Source: an uncultured Gemmatimonadales bacterium
Lineage (GTDB): Bacteria > Gemmatimonadota > Gemmatimonadetes > Gemmatimonadales > Gemmatimonadaceae
Direction: 5' to 3'
NCBI GenBank assembly: GCA_963701965.1
Contig: OY969695.1
Span: 4,064,001-4,128,000 of the forward strand
Length of the DNA: 64,000 nt
This document shows, piece after piece, positions 12,960 through 53,944 of the stretch (position 1 is the first letter of the stretch; every line of letters starts with the position of its first letter). The notes under the pieces are model-generated. The model was not told where the DNA came from. It saw nothing but the letters and a program-made list of their open reading frames with translations, and did not search any database. The position numbers and the translations under genes were made by a program.

Positions 12960-13565
12960 ATGACCGCCCCACTCGTCTTCGGGATCACCGGCGCCTCCGG
13001 CGCCCCGTATGCCGTGCGCGCGCTCCAGGCGCTCGCGGCCGCGGGGCAGCCGGTCGCCCTGATCATTTCGAGTCATGGCGTACGGCTGCTCCATACGGAG
13101 ATGGGTATCCAGACACTGGATGCGCTGCGCGAAGCCGTCGGGGGCGCGGCATGGGACCAGTGGGTGACCGTGCACGACGATCGGGATCGCGGAGCGGGCC
13201 CGGCGTCGGGATCGTTCGCCAGCGCCGGCATGCTCGTCTGTCCCTGCTCCATGGGGACGTTGTCCGCGATCGCGGCGGGCAGCTCGCGTTCGTTGATCGA
13301 GCGCGCCGCCGATGTGACGCTCAAAGAGCGCCGCCGCCTCGTGCTCGTGCCGCGCGAGACGCCGCTCAGCGAGATTCACCTGCGCAACATGTTGCGGGTG
13401 ACCCGCGCGGGAGCCGTCGTGCTGCCGGCCGCACCCGGATTCTACCACCGCCCGTCCACCGTAGACGCGCTCGTCGACTTCGTCGTGGCGCGCATCCTGG
13501 ACCACGTCGGCGTGCCCCAGTCGCTCGTGCCCCGCTGGGCGGGAACGATGCCGCCGTCGCGTTGA
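12960..13565 (+). CDS. ubiX: Flavin prenyltransferase UbiX
   Basis: GITGASGA, ASGS, PCSMGTL, RAADVTLKERR..LVPRETP. Alternative GTG start at 12948. Confidence 0.92.
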   Translation: MTAPLVFGITGASGAPYAVRALQALAAAGQPVALIISSHGVRLLHTEMGIQTLDALREAVGGAAWDQWVTVHDDRDRGAGPASGSFASAGMLVCPCSMGTLSAIAAGSSRSLIERAADVTLKERRRLVLVPRETPLSEIHLRNMLRVTRAGAVVLPAAPGFYHRPSTVDALVDFVVARILDHVGVPQSLVPRWAGTMPPSR

Positions 13566-14065
13566 CGGTCCACTGGATCGGCCTCATCTCCGACACCCAC
13601 GGATTGGTCCGGGCGGAGGTGCACACGGCGCTCGCCGGGGTCGAACTGATCTTGCACGCGGGCGACGTCGGCGGCGCCGCGATCCTCGACGAACTGTCGC
13701 TCATCGCGCCGGTCAAGGCCGTCGCCGGCAACACGGACGCGCCTGACGATGTTCGCTTGCGAGACGTGCTCGTCGAGACGGTCGATGGCCTGACCATTCA
13801 CGTGTCGCACGGCCATGAGCTGGGAAGCCCCACGCCGGCGGCGCTGCTCGCCCGCTACCCGGACCAGATCATCGTGTATGGGCACACGCACATCGCGCGG
13901 GTGGAGCGCGCTGGCGACCGGTGGGTCGTGAACCCCGGCGCCGCCGGGCCGCGCCGGTTCGGCGCGCGCCCGAGTGTGGCAAAGCTGCGGTTGGAAGGTG
14001 GGACGGTGGCAGTGGAGGTAATTTCGCTGGCGCTCCGCGCAGCGGAGCGCAGTTCAACCGACTGA
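13562..14065 (+). CDS. YfcE-like metallophosphoesterase
   Basis: SDTHG, HAGD, GNTD, SHGH, YGHTH and NPG motifs; C-terminus runs into the first repeat unit. Confidence 0.88.
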   Translation: MTVHWIGLISDTHGLVRAEVHTALAGVELILHAGDVGGAAILDELSLIAPVKAVAGNTDAPDDVRLRDVLVETVDGLTIHVSHGHELGSPTPAALLARYPDQIIVYGHTHIARVERAGDRWVVNPGAAGPRRFGARPSVAKLRLEGGTVAVEVISLALRAAERSSTD

Positions 14066-14289
14066 TCGAGCAGGTGCGTTGTTAGCACCTGGCTGGCGCT
14101 CCGCGCAGCGGAGCGCAGTTCAACCGACTGATCGAGCAGGTGCGTTGTTAGCACCTGGCTGGCGCTCCGCGCAGCGGAGCGCAGTTCAACCGACTGATCT
14201 AGCAGGTGCGTTTTTAGCACCTGGCTGGCGCTCCGCGCAGCGGAGCGCAGTTCAACCGACTGATCTAGCAGGTGCGTTTTTAGCACCTG
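14026..14289. repeat. Tandem array of four 66-bp double-hairpin units
   Basis: Units start at 14026, 14092, 14158 and 14224: GCGCTCCGC-GCA-GCGGAGCGC, AGTTCAACCGACTGATC, then AGCAGGTGC-GTT(G/T)TTA-GCACCTG. Confidence 0.97.
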
Positions 14290-14290
14290 C

Positions 14291-14509
14291 CTAGATCACG
14301 CGAAAGTGTGACGATGGATAGAGAAAATCATCGTCCGAGTCGTCGTTGATGCGATAGAGTGCGCCATTCGCCTCGACGGCCAACAGCTCGTAGATCCGCC
14401 CCAGCGTCAGATCGTGACACCCGCCCGGCTCGTCCTCGCCCGGTATCTTGAGCCAAGGCTCGACGCTGATGCACTGGACCAGAGTCGTTGGCTCCCACGA
14501 AGTCGCCAT
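14291..14509 (-). CDS. Small acidic hypothetical protein (72 aa)
   Basis: GGGAG SD before the ATG; LTLGRIYE...YRINDDSDDDFLYP beta-rich pattern; stop TAG lies in the terminal CTAG of the repeat array. Confidence 0.6.
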   Translation of the reverse strand: MATSWEPTTLVQCISVEPWLKIPGEDEPGGCHDLTLGRIYELLAVEANGALYRINDDSDDDFLYPSSHFRVI

Positions 14510-21100: not shown

Positions 21101-22627
21101 ATGTCGACCGCCGGCCTCATGATCAGCGTGTCGGGTATCCGGGGCCGTGTCGGTGAAGCCCTGACGCCCGAGCTCGTCACGCAATATGCAGCAGGGTTTG
21201 CAACTTGGGCGTCAGCCCAAGTGCCAGCCCGAGCGGCGTCTGATGCAACTTGGGCGTCAGCCCAAGTGCCAGCCCGAGCGGCGTCTGATGCAACTTGGGC
21301 GTCAGCCCAAGTGCCAGCCCGAGCGGCGTCTGATGCAACTTGGGCGTCAGCCCAAGTGCCAGCCCGAGCGGCGTCTGAGCGAACAAACGCCATCGTCGTT
21401 GGTCGTGATAGCCGGGTGTCCGGTCCCATGTTTCACCGCGCGGTGCTCGCGGGAATCCAATCAGTCGGATGTGACGTGATCGACGTCGGCCTCGCGCCGA
21501 CGCCGACAATCCAACTGGCCGTGGAGCACCACCACGCCGCGGGCGGCCTGGCGATCACGGCAAGTCACAACCCGGTCGAGTGGAACGCGCTCAAGTTCAT
21601 TGGGCCGAGTGGGCTGTTCCTGTCGGGCGAGGACGGCGCGGCGATGCGCGAGGCGACCGCGCGCGGCATCGCGCGCGCCACGTGGGACCGCCTCGGCACG
21701 GTGCGCGTGGACGACCAGGCGATCGAGCGGCATCTCGCCCAGATCCTGGCGTTGCCGTACATCGATGTGGAGGCGCTCCGGCGCCGCCGCTTTCATGTGG
21801 CGCTGGACTGCGTGCGCGGCGCTGGCGCCACCATCATGCCGCGGCTCTTGGAGCGACTGGGCTGCACGGTCACGGCGATCAACTTGGAGACCGACGGACG
21901 TTTCCCGCGACCGCCCGAACCGATCGCCGAGAACCTGTCGGATCTGGAGCGCCTCGTTTGCGTTTCGGGGGCCGACATCGGTTTGGCCGTCGATCCCGAT
22001 GTTGACCGGTTGGCGCTCGTCGACGAGACGGGGAAGGCGGTGGGTGAGGATTATACGCTGGCGCTGGCCGCGGGCGCGGTCCTTCGCCGCCGCCGGGGGC
22101 CGGTTGTGACGAACTTGTCCACCAGCCGGGTCGTCGATGATGCGGCGGCGCTCGCGGGCGTCGAGGTGATCCGGGCGCCGGTGGGAGAGGTCAACGTCGC
22201 GATGCGCATGCGCGCGGTCGGATCCCCGGTGGGTGGTGAAGGAAACGGGGGCGTGATCGTCAGTGATCTGCACCTCGGCCGCGATGCGCCGGTCGGGGCG
22301 GCGCTGGTGTTGCAGCTGTTGGTGGACGATGGGGCGCGCCTTTCCGAAGTCGTCGCACGCCGTCCGCGGTACGCCATCGTCAAGGACAAGTTGGACCGTC
22401 CGCCGGGAGGCATTGATCTCGGAACGGTCTATGCTGCGTTACGGAGCACTTTTGCCGGGGCTGGGGTAGACACGGACGACGGCATTCGTTTCGCTTGGGC
22501 GGACCGGTGGGTCCACATTCGCCCCAGTGGGACGGAGCCCGTCGTCCGCGTGATCGCCGAAGCGCCAACGGTCGAGCAGGCGCGCGAGCTGGTCGCGCGT
22601 GCTCGCGTACCGCTTCAGCACACTTAG
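21101..22627 (+). CDS. glmM: Phosphoglucosamine mutase / phosphohexomutase
   Basis: SVSGIRG, GRDSR, TASHNP, DPDVDR, GGEGNGG and RPSGTEP; adjacent to glmS. Confidence 0.88.
21200..21379 (+). repeat. In-frame tandem repeat, four 45-bp units ([15 protein letters not shown]) inside glmM
   Basis: Units at 21200, 21245, 21290 and 21335, identical except the last base; each contains the hairpin ACTTGGGC-GTCA-GCCCAAGT. Confidence 0.97.
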
Positions 22628-49236: not shown

Positions 49237-51638
49237 TGGGTCACCGTGCCCGGCGCCGGCAGCGCGACCGCCCGCCGCGGAGCGGGTTGCCGCGCCGCCG
49301 GCGGCTCCGGCGCCGGACGCAAGGCCACGTGCAACACCTCGTCCATCGACTTGACCGTGTGAAACGTCGCCGCGGCCCGCACTTCCGCCGGCAACTCCTC
49401 GATCTCGCGCGCATTGCCGTGGGGCACGATCAGGTGGCGGACGCCGGCGCGGTGGGCGGCGACGGATTTCTCCTTGAGGCCGCCAATGGGCAGCACGCGG
49501 CCGCGCAACGTGATCTCGCCGGTCATGGCGAGATCGCCGCGCACGGGGCGGCGGGTGAGCGCACTCACGATCGCGGTCGCGATGGCGATGCCGGCGCTGG
49601 GGCCGTCCTTGGGCGTGGCGCCCGCGGGAATGTGAACGTGGATGTCCCGGGTCCGATAGAAGTCACGGTCGAGACCCAGTTCCCGGGCGCGGCGCCGCGC
49701 ATAGCTCAACGCCGCCGACGCCGACTCCTTCATGACGTCCCCAAGGGTGCCGGTGAGCTGCAGCTTGCCGCGTCCCCGCACGACGGTGACCTCGATATCG
49801 AGCGTCTCGCCGCCCACCGACGTATAGGCGAGCCCCCGGGCGACACCCACGACGTCCTCGAAGGAGAGATCGTCCGGATCGAAAGGCGCGGGGCCCAACA
49901 GCGCTTTCAGCTCGGTGCCGCGCACCGTGACGGGCGCGGTCGAATGGGTCTCGGCGCGGCGCCGGGCCAGCTTGCGCGCCACGCGCGCGATGCGCCGGTC
50001 GAGGTCGCGCACGCCGGCTTCGCGCGTGTATCCGCGCAGAATGCCCGGCAGCGCATCGGGTTCCCACGTCACGGCGTCGGCCGGCAGGCCGTTGCGCGAC
50101 AGCTGGCGCGGCACGAGGAACTGACGCGCGATGGCCAGCTTCTCGTGGTCCAGATACCCGGAGAGGCGCAACACTTCCATCCGATCGCGCAGCGGCTCGG
50201 GAATGGTGGCCAGCGAGTTCGCGGTCGTGATGAACAACACCTGCGACAGATCGTAGTCGAGCTCGAGGTAGTGATCGTTGAAGGCGCGGTTCTGCTCGGG
50301 ATCGAGCACCTCGAGCAGCGCCGCCGCCGGATCTCCGCGATAGTCGGCCCCGAGCTTGTCGATCTCGTCGAGCAGGATGACGGGGTTCACGACTTCGGCG
50401 CGTTTCATGGCCTGCAGGATCCGCCCGGGGAGCGCGCCAATGTACGTGCGCCGGTGACCGCGAATCTCGGCCTCGTCGCGCACGCCGCCCAGCGACATCC
50501 GGACGAATTTCCGGCCCAATGCCCGGGCGACGGACTGGCCCAGCAATGTCTTGCCAACGCCGGGAGGTCCGACGAGACAGAGAATGGGACCGTCCAGTCG
50601 TCCGACGAGCGCCAACACGGCGATGTAGTCCAGAATGCGGTCCTTGACGTCGTCGAGACCGTAGTGATCCACATCGAGCACCGCCCGGGCGTGCTCGACG
50701 TCGAGCACATCGTCCGTGCGCGCCGTCCACGGGAGCGCCATGAGCCAGTCGAGGTAGTTGCGCCCCACGGTCGACTCGGGCGACATCGGCGCCGTGCGCC
50801 GCAGCTTCCGGAGCTCGCGCCGCGCGCGCGCCGCCACCGGCTCGGGCAATCCGCGGCGCGTGATCTCGGTGTCGAGCTCGGCGAGATCGTCGCCTTCCTC
50901 TTGTCCGAGCTCACGGTTGATGGCCCGGAGCTGCTCCTGCAGGTAGAACTCGCGCTGGTTCTGGAACAGCGAGCCGCGGACGTCGTCGTCGATCTTCCGC
51001 TCCAGGCGCAGCAGCTCGATCTCGGCGCCGAGGACGCGAATCAACGCGGCCCACAGATCCCCGACGGCCGGGATCTCGAGGAGCGCTTGTTTGGCGTCGT
51101 GCCGCAGGATGAGGTGCGCCGCGATCGCCATCGCGCGCCGCTCGTCGGAGTCGATGGCCTGGACCAGCGCGACGACTTCGTCCGGAATGCGGCAATGCAG
51201 CGAGACGTACTCCTCGAAGCGCCCCATGGCTTGCCGGCTCTCGGCCTCCGGCGTGACGCCGATCAGCGGGGCCGGGGCGACAATGGCGCGCAGCAAACGC
51301 GCGGTCGGCATGTAGCGCGTCACGCGGGCGCGGGCGATGCCCTCGACGAGGACCTTGGCCGTGCCGCTGGGCAGGCGCGCGAACTGGAGAATGCGCGCGA
51401 CGATGCCGACCCGATAGAGGTCCGCCGCCGTGGGATCCTGGATCTCGCCGTTCTCCTGCGCGACCAGCAGGACGAAGTGATCCTTGGCCACCGCCGCTTC
51501 GACCGCCGCCAACGAGGCGGGCCGGCCGACCAGCAGCGGGATCACCACATGGGGAAAGACGACGACTTCACGCAACGGGAGTACGGGAAGCCGATCCTCG
51601 GTTGTGACGGGCTCGCCGTCACGCGCGAAGGTGGGAAC
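49233..51638 (-). CDS. lon: Lon protease
   Basis: [26 protein letters not shown] and PKDGPSAG. Start uncertain (GTT 51638 or TTG 51575). Confidence 0.96.
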
Positions 51639-52894
51639 TACGCCTCCTTCTTCTGCCGCTTGGGTGCGATCTCCAGCAGCGGCGGTGCAGCGTTGGTCAC
51701 CGTGGACTCGATGACCTTGACCTCGACGACGTCATCGCGACTCGGCAGGTCGAACATGATCTCGGTCAGCATCTCCTCGAGGATCGCCCGCAAGCCCCGG
51801 GCGCCGGTGCCGCGCTTGAGCGCTTTGTTGGCGATCGCCTTGAGCGCGCTCTCCTCGAACGTGAGCTTGACCTCCTCGAGGTCGAACAGCTTGGCGTACT
51901 GTTTCGTGAGCGCGTTCTTCGGCTCTTTCAGAATGCGGACGAGGGACTCTTCGTCGAGGGCTTCGAGCGGCACCGACACGGGGAGCCGGCCGACGAGCTC
52001 GGGGATGAGTCCGTACCGCAGGAGATCGTCGGGCTCGACGTCGGCGAACGGATTCTTGATCACGCGCTTGGCGTGAAGACCCAACGCGTCTTCCTTCGCG
52101 AATCCGATCTGCTTCCGGCCCGTGCGGGCCTCGATGATCTTCTCCAACCCGTCGAACGCGCCACCGCAGATAAACAGGATGTCCTTGGTGTTGATCTGGA
52201 TGTATTCCTGTTGCGGATGCTTCCGGCCGCCCTGCGGCGGGACGGAGGCCACGGTGCCTTCGAGGATCTTGAGGAGCGCCTGCTGCACGCCTTCGCCGGA
52301 GACGTCCCGCGTGATGCTGGGGTTCTCCGATTTGCGGGCGATCTTGTCGATCTCGTCAATGTAAACGATTCCGCGCTCACACTCGGCGACGTTGAAGTCG
52401 CCGGCCTGCAGCAACCGCACGAGAATGTTCTCGACGTCTTCACCGACGTACCCGGCCTCGGTGAGCGTCGTGGCGTCGGCGATCGTGAACGGCACATCCA
52501 GTATGCGGGCCAACGTCTGCGCCAGCAGGGTCTTCCCCACGCCGGTCGGCCCGATCAACAGGATGTTGGACTTGTCCAGCTCGACCTCGTCATCGCGCAA
52601 CGAGGCGGAATTGATGCGCTTATAGTGATTGTAGACGGCAACGGCCAGCGCTTTCTTCGCCCGCTCCTGCCCGATCACATATTGGTCCAGAACGTCCTTT
52701 ATTTCCTGGGGCGACGGGACCTGGGTGATCGCCTCCGCGACTTCGCGCTCCTCGTCCTCGGCGAGAATCTCGTTGCAGAGCGCAATGCACTCGTTGCAAA
52801 TGTAGACGGACGGTCCGGAAATGAACTTCCGCACCGAATCCTTGGACTTTCCGCAGAACGAGCAACGGAGGTGTTTGTCGTGGGACATGGGCAT
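51638..52894 (-). CDS. clpX: ATP-dependent Clp protease ATP-binding subunit
   Basis: CSFCGK zinc finger, [14 protein letters not shown] and IGF loop. Confidence 0.98.
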
Positions 52895-52991
52895 CCAATG
52901 GAGGCTGCCGAGAACTAACAGCCGTGCCGGAACGGGTCAAGCAGAGCGCAACCTGGCGTTTTCCTATAATAACAGTGCGGCGCCCGCGGCT

Positions 52992-53009
52992 ATGTGAATC
53001 CCTTCACAA
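52992..53009. promoter_or_regulatory. Palindromic operator ATGTGAA-TCCC-TTCACAA (Rex-like or CRP-like) upstream of clpX
   Basis: Perfect TGTGA-N6-TCACA, and one mismatch from TTGTGAA-N4-TTCACAA; lies in an AT-rich intergenic stretch. Confidence 0.55.
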
Positions 53010-53034: not shown

Positions 53035-53306
53035 AGCTCCGCGTCGCGGAGCTCAGTTCAACCGACTGCGACTAGCGGGTGCGTTTTTCAGCACCCTGCT
53101 AGAGCTCCGCGTCGCGGAGCTCAGTTCAACCGAGTGCGACTAGCGGGTGCGTTTTTCAGCACCCTGCTAGAGCTCCGCCCAGCGGAGCTCAGTTCAACCG
53201 AGTGCGACTAGCGGGTGCGTTTTTCAGCACCCTGCTAGAGCTCCGCCCAGCGGAGCTCAGTTCAACCGACTGCGACTAGCGGGTGCGTTTTTCAGCACCC
53301 TGCTAG
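53035..53306. repeat. Tandem array of four 68-bp double-hairpin units, same family as 14026-14289
   Basis: Units at 53035, 53103, 53171 and 53239: AGCTCCGC-(GTC/CCA)-GCGGAGCT, CAGTTCAACCGA(C/G)TGCGA, CTAGCGGGTGC-GTTTTTCA-GCACCCTGCTAG. Confidence 0.97.
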
Positions 53307-53314
53307 TGGCTAAG

Positions 53315-53944
53315 TCATGCTGTGACGGTGGGTTGTTTCGACGTTTCGACGACTTCGCCGCGTTGCGCGACGATATTGTCGATCAGTCCGTACGACTTGG
53401 CTTCCTCGGCGGACATGTGGTAGTCGCGCACGATGTCCCGCTCGATCTGCTCGACCGGACGGCCCGTGTGCTTCGACATGAGATCGTTCATCTTGGAGCG
53501 AAGGTACAGGATCTCCCGCGCCTGGATCTCGATATCGGCCGCCGTGCCCTGCGCGCCGCCCGAAGGCTGGTGGATCATGATGCGCGAGTGCGGCAGCGCC
53601 GAGCGGCGGCCCTTGCGGCCCGCTGCCAGCAGGAAGGCGCCCATGCTGGCCGCGATGCCCATGCACGTGGTATTCACCGGACTCCGGAGATACTGCATCG
53701 TATCGTAGATCGCGAGCCCGGCCGAGACGCTCCCGCCAGGGGAATTGATGTACAGATAGATGTCGCGGTCCGGATTGTCCGCGTCCAGAAACAGCAGCTG
53801 CGCGATGATGATGTTCGCGACGTCGTCGTTGATCGGCGTCCCGAGGAAAACAATGCGGTCCATGAGGAGCCGCGAGAAGATGTCGTACGTGCGCTCGCCG
53901 CGGCTGGACCGCTCAATGACGTACGGAGGATAGATCGTTGCCAT
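53315..53944 (-). CDS. clpP: ATP-dependent Clp protease proteolytic subunit
   Basis: DIFSRL..DRI, YINSPGG, AASMG and MIHQP. Confidence 0.97.

What the first reader, a model, noticed from the sequence alone, without database searches (positions are those of the whole stretch)
53035..53306. Second array of the same family, 39 kb away, with compensatory stem changes
Seen: hairpin 1 is GAGCTCCGC/GCGGAGCTC here versus GCGCTCCGC/GCGGAGCGC at 14 kb (paired A-T versus C-G change) with a free 3-nt loop (GTC, CCA, GCA); hairpin 2 is GGGTGC/GCACCC versus AGGTGC/GCACCT (paired change); the linker CAGTTCAACCGA is invariant. Hairpin 2 is bracketed by CTAG...CTAG and has one bulged base. Both arrays start with hairpin 1 and end at hairpin 2 + CTAG. 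Inference: selection on single-stranded structure plus a sequence-specific linker, as expected for a HUH/Y1 nuclease substrate (hairpin followed by TTCAA recalls IS200/IS605 right ends) or a functional RNA. The reverse strand CTAG-CAGGGTGCTGAAAAA also recalls IS5/IS1182-type termini; that resemblance is from memory and unverified. It splits clpP from clpX and could uncouple their expression.
Basis: partly seen in the sequence, partly recalled or inferred. Interest (0 to 1): 0.7.

Follow-up and report, generated by a model that had tools for sequence, protein, structure and literature searches.

The report
Mobile repeat copies its own target
This array is one of over 60 insertions of a 60-70-base two-hairpin repeat in a soil-type bacterial genus, and at most sites the repeat carries an inverted copy of the host DNA next to it, likely written by fold-back copying when it inserts, a behaviour I found described for no other small mobile repeat.

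Summary
The array is real (4 x 68 bp between clpP and clpX) and belongs to a genus-restricted family in Gemmatimonadaceae: 107 copies at 62 loci in this genome, 17 of them in-frame inside genes. Three relatives have the clpP-clpX site empty. Hairpin 1 covaries strongly and keeps DNA-type GNA triloops on one strand. At 19 loci it repeats the last 6-13 bases of a host gene, stop codon included; orthologous empty sites show that partner is host DNA. Pairing stops at the linker edge, and arrays were amplified after the arm was set. No Y1, integron, IS5, TnpB or RT enzyme fits. The IS5-type end is real but limited to one subfamily; there is no CTAG duplication at this site. Best reading: a REP/BIME-like single-stranded-DNA element whose arm is templated from the target at insertion (0.45); passive template switching afterwards is the close rival (0.3).

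The parts
53035..53306 (+). Tandem array, 4 x 68 bp, of the two-hairpin element, between clpP and clpX
   Evidence: site empty in G001, G003, G005
53238..53258 (+). Hairpin 1 of unit 4: 9-bp stem, 3-nt loop; the family-wide covarying hairpin
53259..53270 (+). Unpaired conserved linker (AGTTCAACCGAC) of unit 4; likely protein-recognition or joining site (inferred)
53271..53279 (+). Locus-specific arm (TGCGACTAG), complementary at 7 of 8 positions to the host flank 53303-53310
53280..53306 (+). Inner hairpin 2; 53288-53306 equals an IS5-family terminal repeat plus CTAG
53303..53310 (+). Partner of the arm, CTAGTGGC; aligns with the empty site of relatives (9 of 14 identical to G005 over 53301-53314), so largely host-derived
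53315..53944 (-). clpP (PF00574); stop codon 8 bases from the array
51638..52894 (-). clpX (zf-C4_ClpX + AAA)
52966..53008 (-). Promoter-like module for clpX between array and clpX: TGTGA-N6-TCACA (52993-53008) and a -10-like hexamer (52966-52971), conserved in G001, G003, G005; CRP/FNR reading is recalled knowledge
14026..14294 (+). Sister array, 4 x 66 bp; the metallophosphoesterase gene 13562-14065 now ends inside unit 1
14261..14268 (+). Arm of the last 14-kb unit, TGATCTAG: identical to the last 8 bases of the converging ORF 14291-14509 including its TAG
14291..14509 (-). 72-aa ORF with no Pfam match, present in G003 without the array; its stop lies in the CTAG that closes the array

Best explanation
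The array is a local four-fold amplification of one insertion of a 60-70-base non-coding mobile repeat whose last hairpin pairs with the host DNA beside it, and that arm was likely copied from the target during insertion of a single-stranded DNA intermediate by an as yet unidentified, inferred nicking enzyme. Shown: dispersed copies with empty sites in relatives; a covarying hairpin 1 and conserved linker; an arm that differs at each locus and matches its own host flank; amplification after the arm was set. Inferred steps: hairpin 1 plus linker is what an enzyme in trans binds on one strand; the target is captured at a short palindromic core (CTAG, mostly TAG stop codons, or GATC) by 4-7 base pairs with the donor arm; the host end is extended through the inner hairpin, folds back, copies 6-15 of its own bases, and rejoins the donor at the 3' edge of the linker; repeated nick-primed copying at the same site gives tandem arrays. 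Copies inside genes survive only when they keep the frame.
For: Arm (positions +8 to +15 after the first A of AACCGAC) matches its own downstream DNA at 7 or 8 of 8 in 34 of 62 loci, against 4.1% of 3782 cross-locus pairs; within one subfamily of 11 loci permutation p 1e-5. At 19 loci with a converging TAG the arm repeats the gene's last bases (mean local score 7.6 against 4.2, p 5e-6; own gene best or tied in 16 of 19). Arms match even the orthologous empty site of another species (n = 21 of 27 alignments, p 0.003); clearest at G000 3857226, 4780717, the 14-kb array, 2695870 and L036. With the register fixed on +10 to +15, pairing is 70% at +9, 52% at +8, and background (14-36%) at +7 and over the whole linker (50 of 62 loci), while arm length runs from 8 to 15. 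The loop between arm and host can be 0, 5, about 20 or about 27 bases. In 13 loci of one subfamily hairpin 1 and linker are 9-13 of 13 identical per position while the arm is 4-7 of 13. Of 45 internal array units, 34 fit the final host flank better than their own junction, 6 the reverse, 5 tie. GNA triloops on one strand: hairpin 1 38 of 62, hairpin 2 30 of 62, reverse-complement type once; these are the extra-stable DNA mini-hairpins (PMC13037366, passages).
Against: No mobilising enzyme found: Y1 0 of 6 genomes of the genus, family-trained Y1 profile nothing below E 0.069 in G000, no integron integrase over cut-off, no TnpB, RT, IS5 and IS110 hits in G000 only in an element-free stretch that looks foreign. 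In the GATC subfamily several loci keep a shared donor-type arm whose outer bases do not match the flank (1035586, 2261601, 2569732, 3435910), and the subfamily signal is weaker (mean 5.96 against 5.38, p 2e-4). Matches are usually 7 of 9, not perfect, and fall off over four positions. At two loci (2695870, 2078731) changed linker bases also match the flank, as passive switching would give (seen by eye, not tested). No replication-strand bias (24 against 19 intergenic loci, on an assembly with patchy skew). All relatives are other species (about 70-85% DNA identity), so junctions are not resolved to the base.
Confidence: 0.45

Rival explanations
1. Ordinary REP/BIME-like repeat that inserts with the donor's arm; afterwards replication template switching at the quasi-palindrome rewrites the arm to match the flank and also keeps hairpin 1 paired. 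No special insertion chemistry.
For: Template switching is known to perfect inverted repeats in bacteria (PMC5941160, abstract and Introduction) and to make multi-base compensatory changes (PMC8794818, abstract). Donor-type arms persist at several GATC loci; pairing declines gradually from +11 to +7; degenerate copies still have clean stems; two linkers look patched from the flank.
Against: Internal array units are equally good substrates yet 34 of 45 keep the arm for the final flank; the linker is not overwritten and the flank is not converted to pair with it; no hairpin 2 of the IS5-end subfamily was found without its linker; long arms (12-15 bases) still end within 0-3 bases of the linker.
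Confidence: 0.3
2. The arm is a DNA guide that only selects targets by base pairing (IS608-like guide, but longer); it is not rewritten, and guides diversify by mutation in donors.
For: GATC subfamily copies share an arm and land at GAGATC(C) sites, often the codons for Glu-Ile; loci 415529 and 4117060 have similar arms and the same CTAGTGG flank; IS200/IS605 choose cleavage sites by DNA-DNA pairing (PMC3201880, passages).
Against: Most arms are unique in sequence and length while hairpin 1 and linker hardly vary; arms of 13 matching bases to a gene end (2249788, 5094868) have no sister donor in the genome.
Confidence: 0.12
3. The stems are kept by selection at RNA level: the hairpin protects or terminates the mRNA of the gene whose stop it overlaps, here clpP, and tunes clpP-clpX read-through.
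For: 23 loci have a converging gene's stop within 52 bases of the linker and 6 a stop at the left edge; REPs are thought to act on transcripts (PMC3733652, passages).
Against: 17 loci lie inside coding sequence; loops are DNA-type GNA; no terminator pattern at this array; no Rfam match; sites are not shared between species; CTAG target choice explains the stop-codon link.
Confidence: 0.08
4. A miniature IS5-family element moved by a DDE transposase with CTAG duplication.
For: 53288-53306 equals the terminal repeat plus CTAG of 1.3-kb IS5-family elements (NF033581, 239.7 bits over cut-off 140) and of 139- and 159-bp miniature elements in other Gemmatimonadota; CTAG flanks both ends at some loci (3926895).
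Against: Only about 13-17 of 62 loci have this end; the left end is hairpin 1, not a terminal repeat; no CTAG at the left of this array; no intact IS5 in 5 genomes of the genus searched.
Confidence: 0.05

Closest known systems
REP / BIME / REPIN with TnpA-REP (RAYT)
   Same: Short palindromic repeats at high copy, two hairpins with a linker, tandem copies nearly identical within a locus, overlap with TAG stops, some in-frame in genes, strand-specific ssDNA structure; spread followed by local amplification (PMC3333891, PMC3733652, PMC3116915 passages; PMC8266576 Introduction).
   Different: No conserved GTAG tag (the NTAG is often the host stop); the two hairpins are unrelated, not inverted copies of one REP; the conserved motif is 3' of hairpin 1; no tnpA-REP in the genus; the terminal stem is formed with host DNA through a locus-specific arm, which none of the passages read describes.
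IS200/IS605 family and their non-autonomous derivatives
   Same: Hairpin followed by TCAA/CCAA, one active strand, possible DNA-DNA pairing with the target (PMC3201880, PMC3333891 passages).
   Different: TCAA lies inside the element, so the insert looks like a right-end/left-end junction turned inside out; no fixed target tetranucleotide 5' of the insert; short direct repeats occur; no TnpA or TnpB.
Rickettsia palindromic elements (RPE)
   Same: Palindromic repeats inserted in-frame in functional genes (as cited in PMC3733652; the primary paper was not held).
   Different: Half the length, tandem arrays, free-living GC-rich host, host-matched arm.
IS5-family elements and their MITEs in Gemmatimonadota
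   Same: Identical terminal repeat and CTAG at the right end of one subfamily.
   Different: One end only, one subfamily only; the second repeat is a 7-8-base internal stub.
Integron attC sites (consensus recalled)
   Same: An RYYYAAC-type heptamer, 5 unpaired bases, then a bulged stem with GNA loop; placed at gene stops.
   Different: No matching GTT box after the stem, neighbours are core genes, no integron integrase over cut-off.
Template-switch mutation at quasi-palindromes
   Same: Produces reverse-complement copies of neighbouring DNA and compensatory changes (PMC5941160, PMC8794818).
   Different: Known as a sporadic mutation process, not as a step repeated at most insertions of a mobile family with a fixed boundary.

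Membership tests
REP/BIME/REPIN | Short palindromic repeat, dispersed at high copy number, mostly near gene ends | tested here: met
   107 copies at 62 loci; 45 loci outside gene interiors
REP/BIME/REPIN | Conserved GTAG (or CGTC) tetranucleotide 5' of the hairpin | tested here: not met
   Positions before hairpin 1 are T/G/A then A/G then G; GTAG at only a few loci; TAG is the host stop at 6 loci
REP/BIME/REPIN | Doublet of the same or related REP in inverted orientation | tested here: not met
   Hairpins 1 and 2 are unrelated in most loci and fold separately
REP/BIME/REPIN | Cognate tnpA-REP flanked by the repeats | tested here: not met
   PF01797 0 of 6 genus genomes (67-95% complete); 30 Y1 loci from the family lack the element
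REP/BIME/REPIN | Cleavage and strand transfer of the ssDNA by the enzyme | not testable with these tools
   needs biochemistry
IS200/IS605 non-autonomous element | Element ends at the TCAA-type right cleavage site | tested here: not met
   Empty sites show inserts start at hairpin 1 and run about 40 bases past TYCAA
IS200/IS605 non-autonomous element | Guide tetranucleotide covarying with the cleavage site; fixed 5' target | tested here: inconclusive
   No pair between bases 5' of hairpin 1 and the TYCAA position among the top covarying pairs; left flanks vary
IS200/IS605 non-autonomous element | TnpA (Y1), with or without TnpB, in the genome | tested here: not met
IS5-family MITE | Terminal inverted repeats at both ends | tested here: not met
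   Right end only, one subfamily
IS5-family MITE | CTAG target duplication | tested here: inconclusive
   Absent at clpP-clpX; present at 3926895; GATC repeated at 3435910 and 1035586
IS5-family MITE | Cognate transposase in the genome | tested here: not met
   One broken IS5 in the element-free stretch of G000, none in the other genomes searched
Integron attC | Paired R'' and R' boxes around the L stem; cassette array; IntI | tested here: not met
   No GTT box 5 bases after the stem at the loci inspected by eye; flanks are core genes; TIGR02249 under cut-off in 6 of 6
Known structured RNA | Rfam match | tested here: not met
   Best E 0.067, far under gathering score

The most novel reading that the evidence does not exclude
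A new kind of minimal mobile DNA that writes an inverted copy of its target into itself as part of insertion, so that each copy ends in a hairpin half made of host sequence and gains a site-specific guide that lets it re-insert at, and amplify in, the same site; it is moved by an enzyme outside the transposase families searched and is a current source of 20-23-residue inserts in proteins.
Probability: 0.35. Interest if true: 0.85.

Novelty: new variant of a known kind. Interest (0 to 1): 0.62.

Why it matters
How REP-like repeats insert at new sites is still open (PMC8266576, Introduction). This family leaves a readable footprint of the step, a target-derived inverted copy with a fixed boundary, at dozens of loci with empty orthologous sites, so the mechanism can be tested. 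If the copying is part of insertion it is a self-programming form of target recognition with an unknown enzyme. If it is passive, the family is an unusually clean natural record of template switching and a warning that compensatory changes in repeats need not mean selection. Either way it is adding short peptides to at least 17 proteins of this genome.

Tried and rejected
Enzyme searches that found no partner: PF01797, TIGR02249 and PF00589 (XerC/D and phage-type integrases only), PF05598, PF01609, PF13751, PF01548 (hits in 3 of 6 genomes, the G000 ones in the element-free stretch; ends not compared with the element), PF00078, PF07282. PF04986 rang nowhere, controls included, so it says nothing. 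Genes flanking the 43 intergenic loci look like core genes by their N-termini; I did not scan them against Pfam. Viral contigs: 6 pattern matches, none with the hairpin-1 stem, taken as chance. One search used a pattern one base out of register; it returned 6 longer variants and is no count. Replication-strand bias: none seen. Folding with the linker included gave an unclear boundary (19 of 61 folds reached into the linker through alternative helices), so the fixed-register test replaced it. Public runs held at most 0.10 of the words and did not cover the array: no evidence on expression, copy-number variation or assembly accuracy. Simple promoter and terminator scan found nothing. Earlier scan notes: nothing. 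Literature searches for a target-copying repeat or for repeats in Gemmatimonadota returned nothing relevant (open-access library only). R-scape was not available.

Full report
Observation. The array is as described: four 68-bp units at 53035-53306 and a sister array of four 66-bp units at 14026-14289. The last unit folds into two hairpins, better than all 200 shuffles on either strand. It lies 8 bases past the clpP stop and 141 bases before the clpX start in the tig-clpP-clpX-lon cluster.

The family. In the window's genome (G000, 5.12 Mb, 67% GC) a profile and hairpin search gave 107 copies at 62 loci; the hairpin filter passed 69 of 873 linker-like motifs against 2-23 of 830-1817 for five control motifs. 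Seven further degenerate loci were seen later and are not in the counts. Seventeen loci are tandem arrays of 2-8 units. A strict pattern occurs in 4 of 5 other genomes of the genus (16 matches in G003, one each in three, none in G001) and in 0 of 35 other relatives; a looser one gives 57 matches in G000 and at most one, like the control, in each of 300 genomes of the order. All 13 matches in the GTDB collection carry Gemmatimonadaceae or Gemmatimonadales titles; 8 metagenome contigs add the same kind of element. The clpP-clpX site is empty in G001, G003 and G005, and most G003 elements with a syntenic G000 region sit at sites empty in G000. This is a mobile repeat.

Genes. By my own gene calls, 19 loci overlap coding sequence; 17 are internal and in frame, 15 of them on the sense strand. 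Eight of the 19 had a two-sided orthologue in the 1.6 Mb of G003 fetched, and all eight show a clean gap, four of exactly 21 residues. A converging gene's stop lies within 52 bases of the linker at 23 loci, 19 of them TAG, and a TAG abuts hairpin 1 at 6 loci; TAG is 29% of stops genome-wide and CTAG is under-represented, 1914 against 4204 expected.

Hairpin 1 and linker. In 52 of 62 loci in register, each of nine pairs is Watson-Crick in 49-52. In 79 distinct sequences chosen only on loop closure and linker, the six highest APC-corrected pairs are all stem pairs and 69 loops are GNA. d(GCGNAGC) is an extra-stable DNA mini-hairpin, much weaker as RNA (PMC13037366, passages). So one strand folds, as DNA. 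Covariation is real, but template switching can create it without selection (PMC8794818, abstract).

The host-matched arm. One base after AACCGAC begins an arm that differs between loci and pairs with the DNA after the element. It matches its own flank at 7 or more of 8 in 34 of 62 loci against 4.1% of cross-locus pairs. At the 19 TAG loci it repeats the gene's last bases (p 5e-6), 13 bases at two loci; at 14 kb the arm is the last 8 bases of ORF 14291-14509. The partner is host DNA: it is conserved at empty sites (3857226, 4780717, 2695870, the 14-kb site, L036), and arms match the other species' empty site above chance (21 of 27 alignments kept, 6 dropped for own match under 6; p 0.003; a few rows may be paralogous, which would weaken the signal). 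Here the arm GCGACTAG pairs with CTAGTGGC, which aligns with the empty spacer. Pairing falls to background at the linker edge whatever the arm length, 8-15 bases. The loop between arm and host can be absent (4780717), five bases (5094868) or a 20-27-base inner hairpin. In G003 a three-hairpin form has a fixed hairpin 2 and a third hairpin that plays the terminal part (by eye). Within arrays, 34 of 45 internal units fit the final flank better than their own junction, so amplification came after the arm was set.

Results against a simple reading. Several GATC-subfamily loci keep a shared arm whose outer bases do not match; matches are typically 7 of 9; two linkers look patched from the flank; relatives are too distant for base-exact junctions; some CTAG variants may be consensus errors, which could not be checked because no public run covered the array.

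Enzyme. None found. The RT, IS5, IS110 and broken integron integrase of G000 lie in the first 300 kb, which has no element and looks like foreign sequence (inference from gene content). It is confined to one subfamily and one end, so it is best read as a captured remnant. There is no CTAG at the left of this array.

Mechanism. I favour copying at insertion (0.45): the host end is extended through the inner hairpin, folds back, copies its own last bases and rejoins the donor at the linker. The fixed boundary, variable arm and loop length, and unconverted internal units favour it. Passive template switching after insertion (0.3; PMC5941160, abstract and Introduction) explains the unmatched GATC copies and needs no new chemistry. 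Target choice by pairing alone (0.12), RNA-level selection (0.08) and an IS5 miniature element (0.05) fit less. The first three are not exclusive.

clpP-clpX. Between array and clpX lie TGTGA-N6-TCACA (15 such sites in the genome) and a -10-like hexamer, conserved with spacing within one base in four genomes. By recalled consensus this is an activator-dependent clpX promoter, so clpX probably does not depend on read-through across the array. No terminator pattern was found. An effect on read-through is untested.

Comparison. It works like a REP/BIME: dispersed, two hairpins, locally amplified, often at TAG stops, sometimes in genes (PMC3333891, PMC3733652, PMC3116915, PMC3201880: passages; PMC8266576: abstract and Introduction; supplements not read, and the list of intragenic REPs in PMC3733652's additional files may bear on the comparison). 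It fails the membership tests for REP, IS200/IS605, IS5 MITE and attC. Searches of the open-access library for a target-copying repeat or for such repeats in this phylum found nothing relevant; subscription journals are not covered. Verdict: real, a new variant of REP-like mobile repeats, with a mechanistic footprint that may be new.

Noticed in passing
window 21199-21378: Unrelated 4 x 45-bp in-frame repeat in the phosphomannomutase gene; each unit has a hairpin whose 5' arm is host coding sequence. The G003 orthologue has a different short-repeat insert at the same place.
   Followed up: partly
window 52966-53008: Conserved TGTGA-N6-TCACA site and -10-like hexamer upstream of clpX in four genomes; spacing fits a class II CRP/FNR-type promoter (recalled consensus).
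   Followed up: partly
G000:C1:1-300000: Element-free stretch with a run of short same-strand genes, decayed attC-like sites, a truncated integron integrase next to a group II intron RT, IS110, IS3 and broken IS5; looks like a degenerate integron from another organism joined into the assembly.
   Followed up: partly
G000:C1:340740-340830: A three-hairpin copy sits directly at the 3' end of what reads as a 23S rRNA gene, between it and 5S (rRNA identity by eye).
   Followed up: no
L159 (G003), site orthologous to window 14026-14294: G003 has a hairpin-1-like remnant after the phosphoesterase stop, joined directly to the end of the converging ORF, whose sequence resembles the linker: possibly an older insertion partly deleted.
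   Followed up: no
G000:C1:4812817 and L143 (G003): Both genomes carry an element at the same intergenic site but of different subtypes, suggesting independent insertions at a hotspot.
   Followed up: no
G000:C1:410329, 1035586, 2607112: Insertions near the N-terminus of a DUF58-like protein, inside pyruvate kinase, and a 7-unit array at a gene junction; protein names by eye from sequence.
   Followed up: no
L202, L223: 139- and 159-bp miniature IS5-type elements with both terminal repeats in other Gemmatimonadota.
   Followed up: no
L173-L194: A group of 200-300-residue Y1 proteins without flanking palindromes is common in the family (37 of 151 genomes have a PF01797 match) but missing from this genus.
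   Followed up: partly
window 14291-14509: Conserved 72-residue ORF with no Pfam family, downstream of a UvrC-like gene.
   Followed up: no
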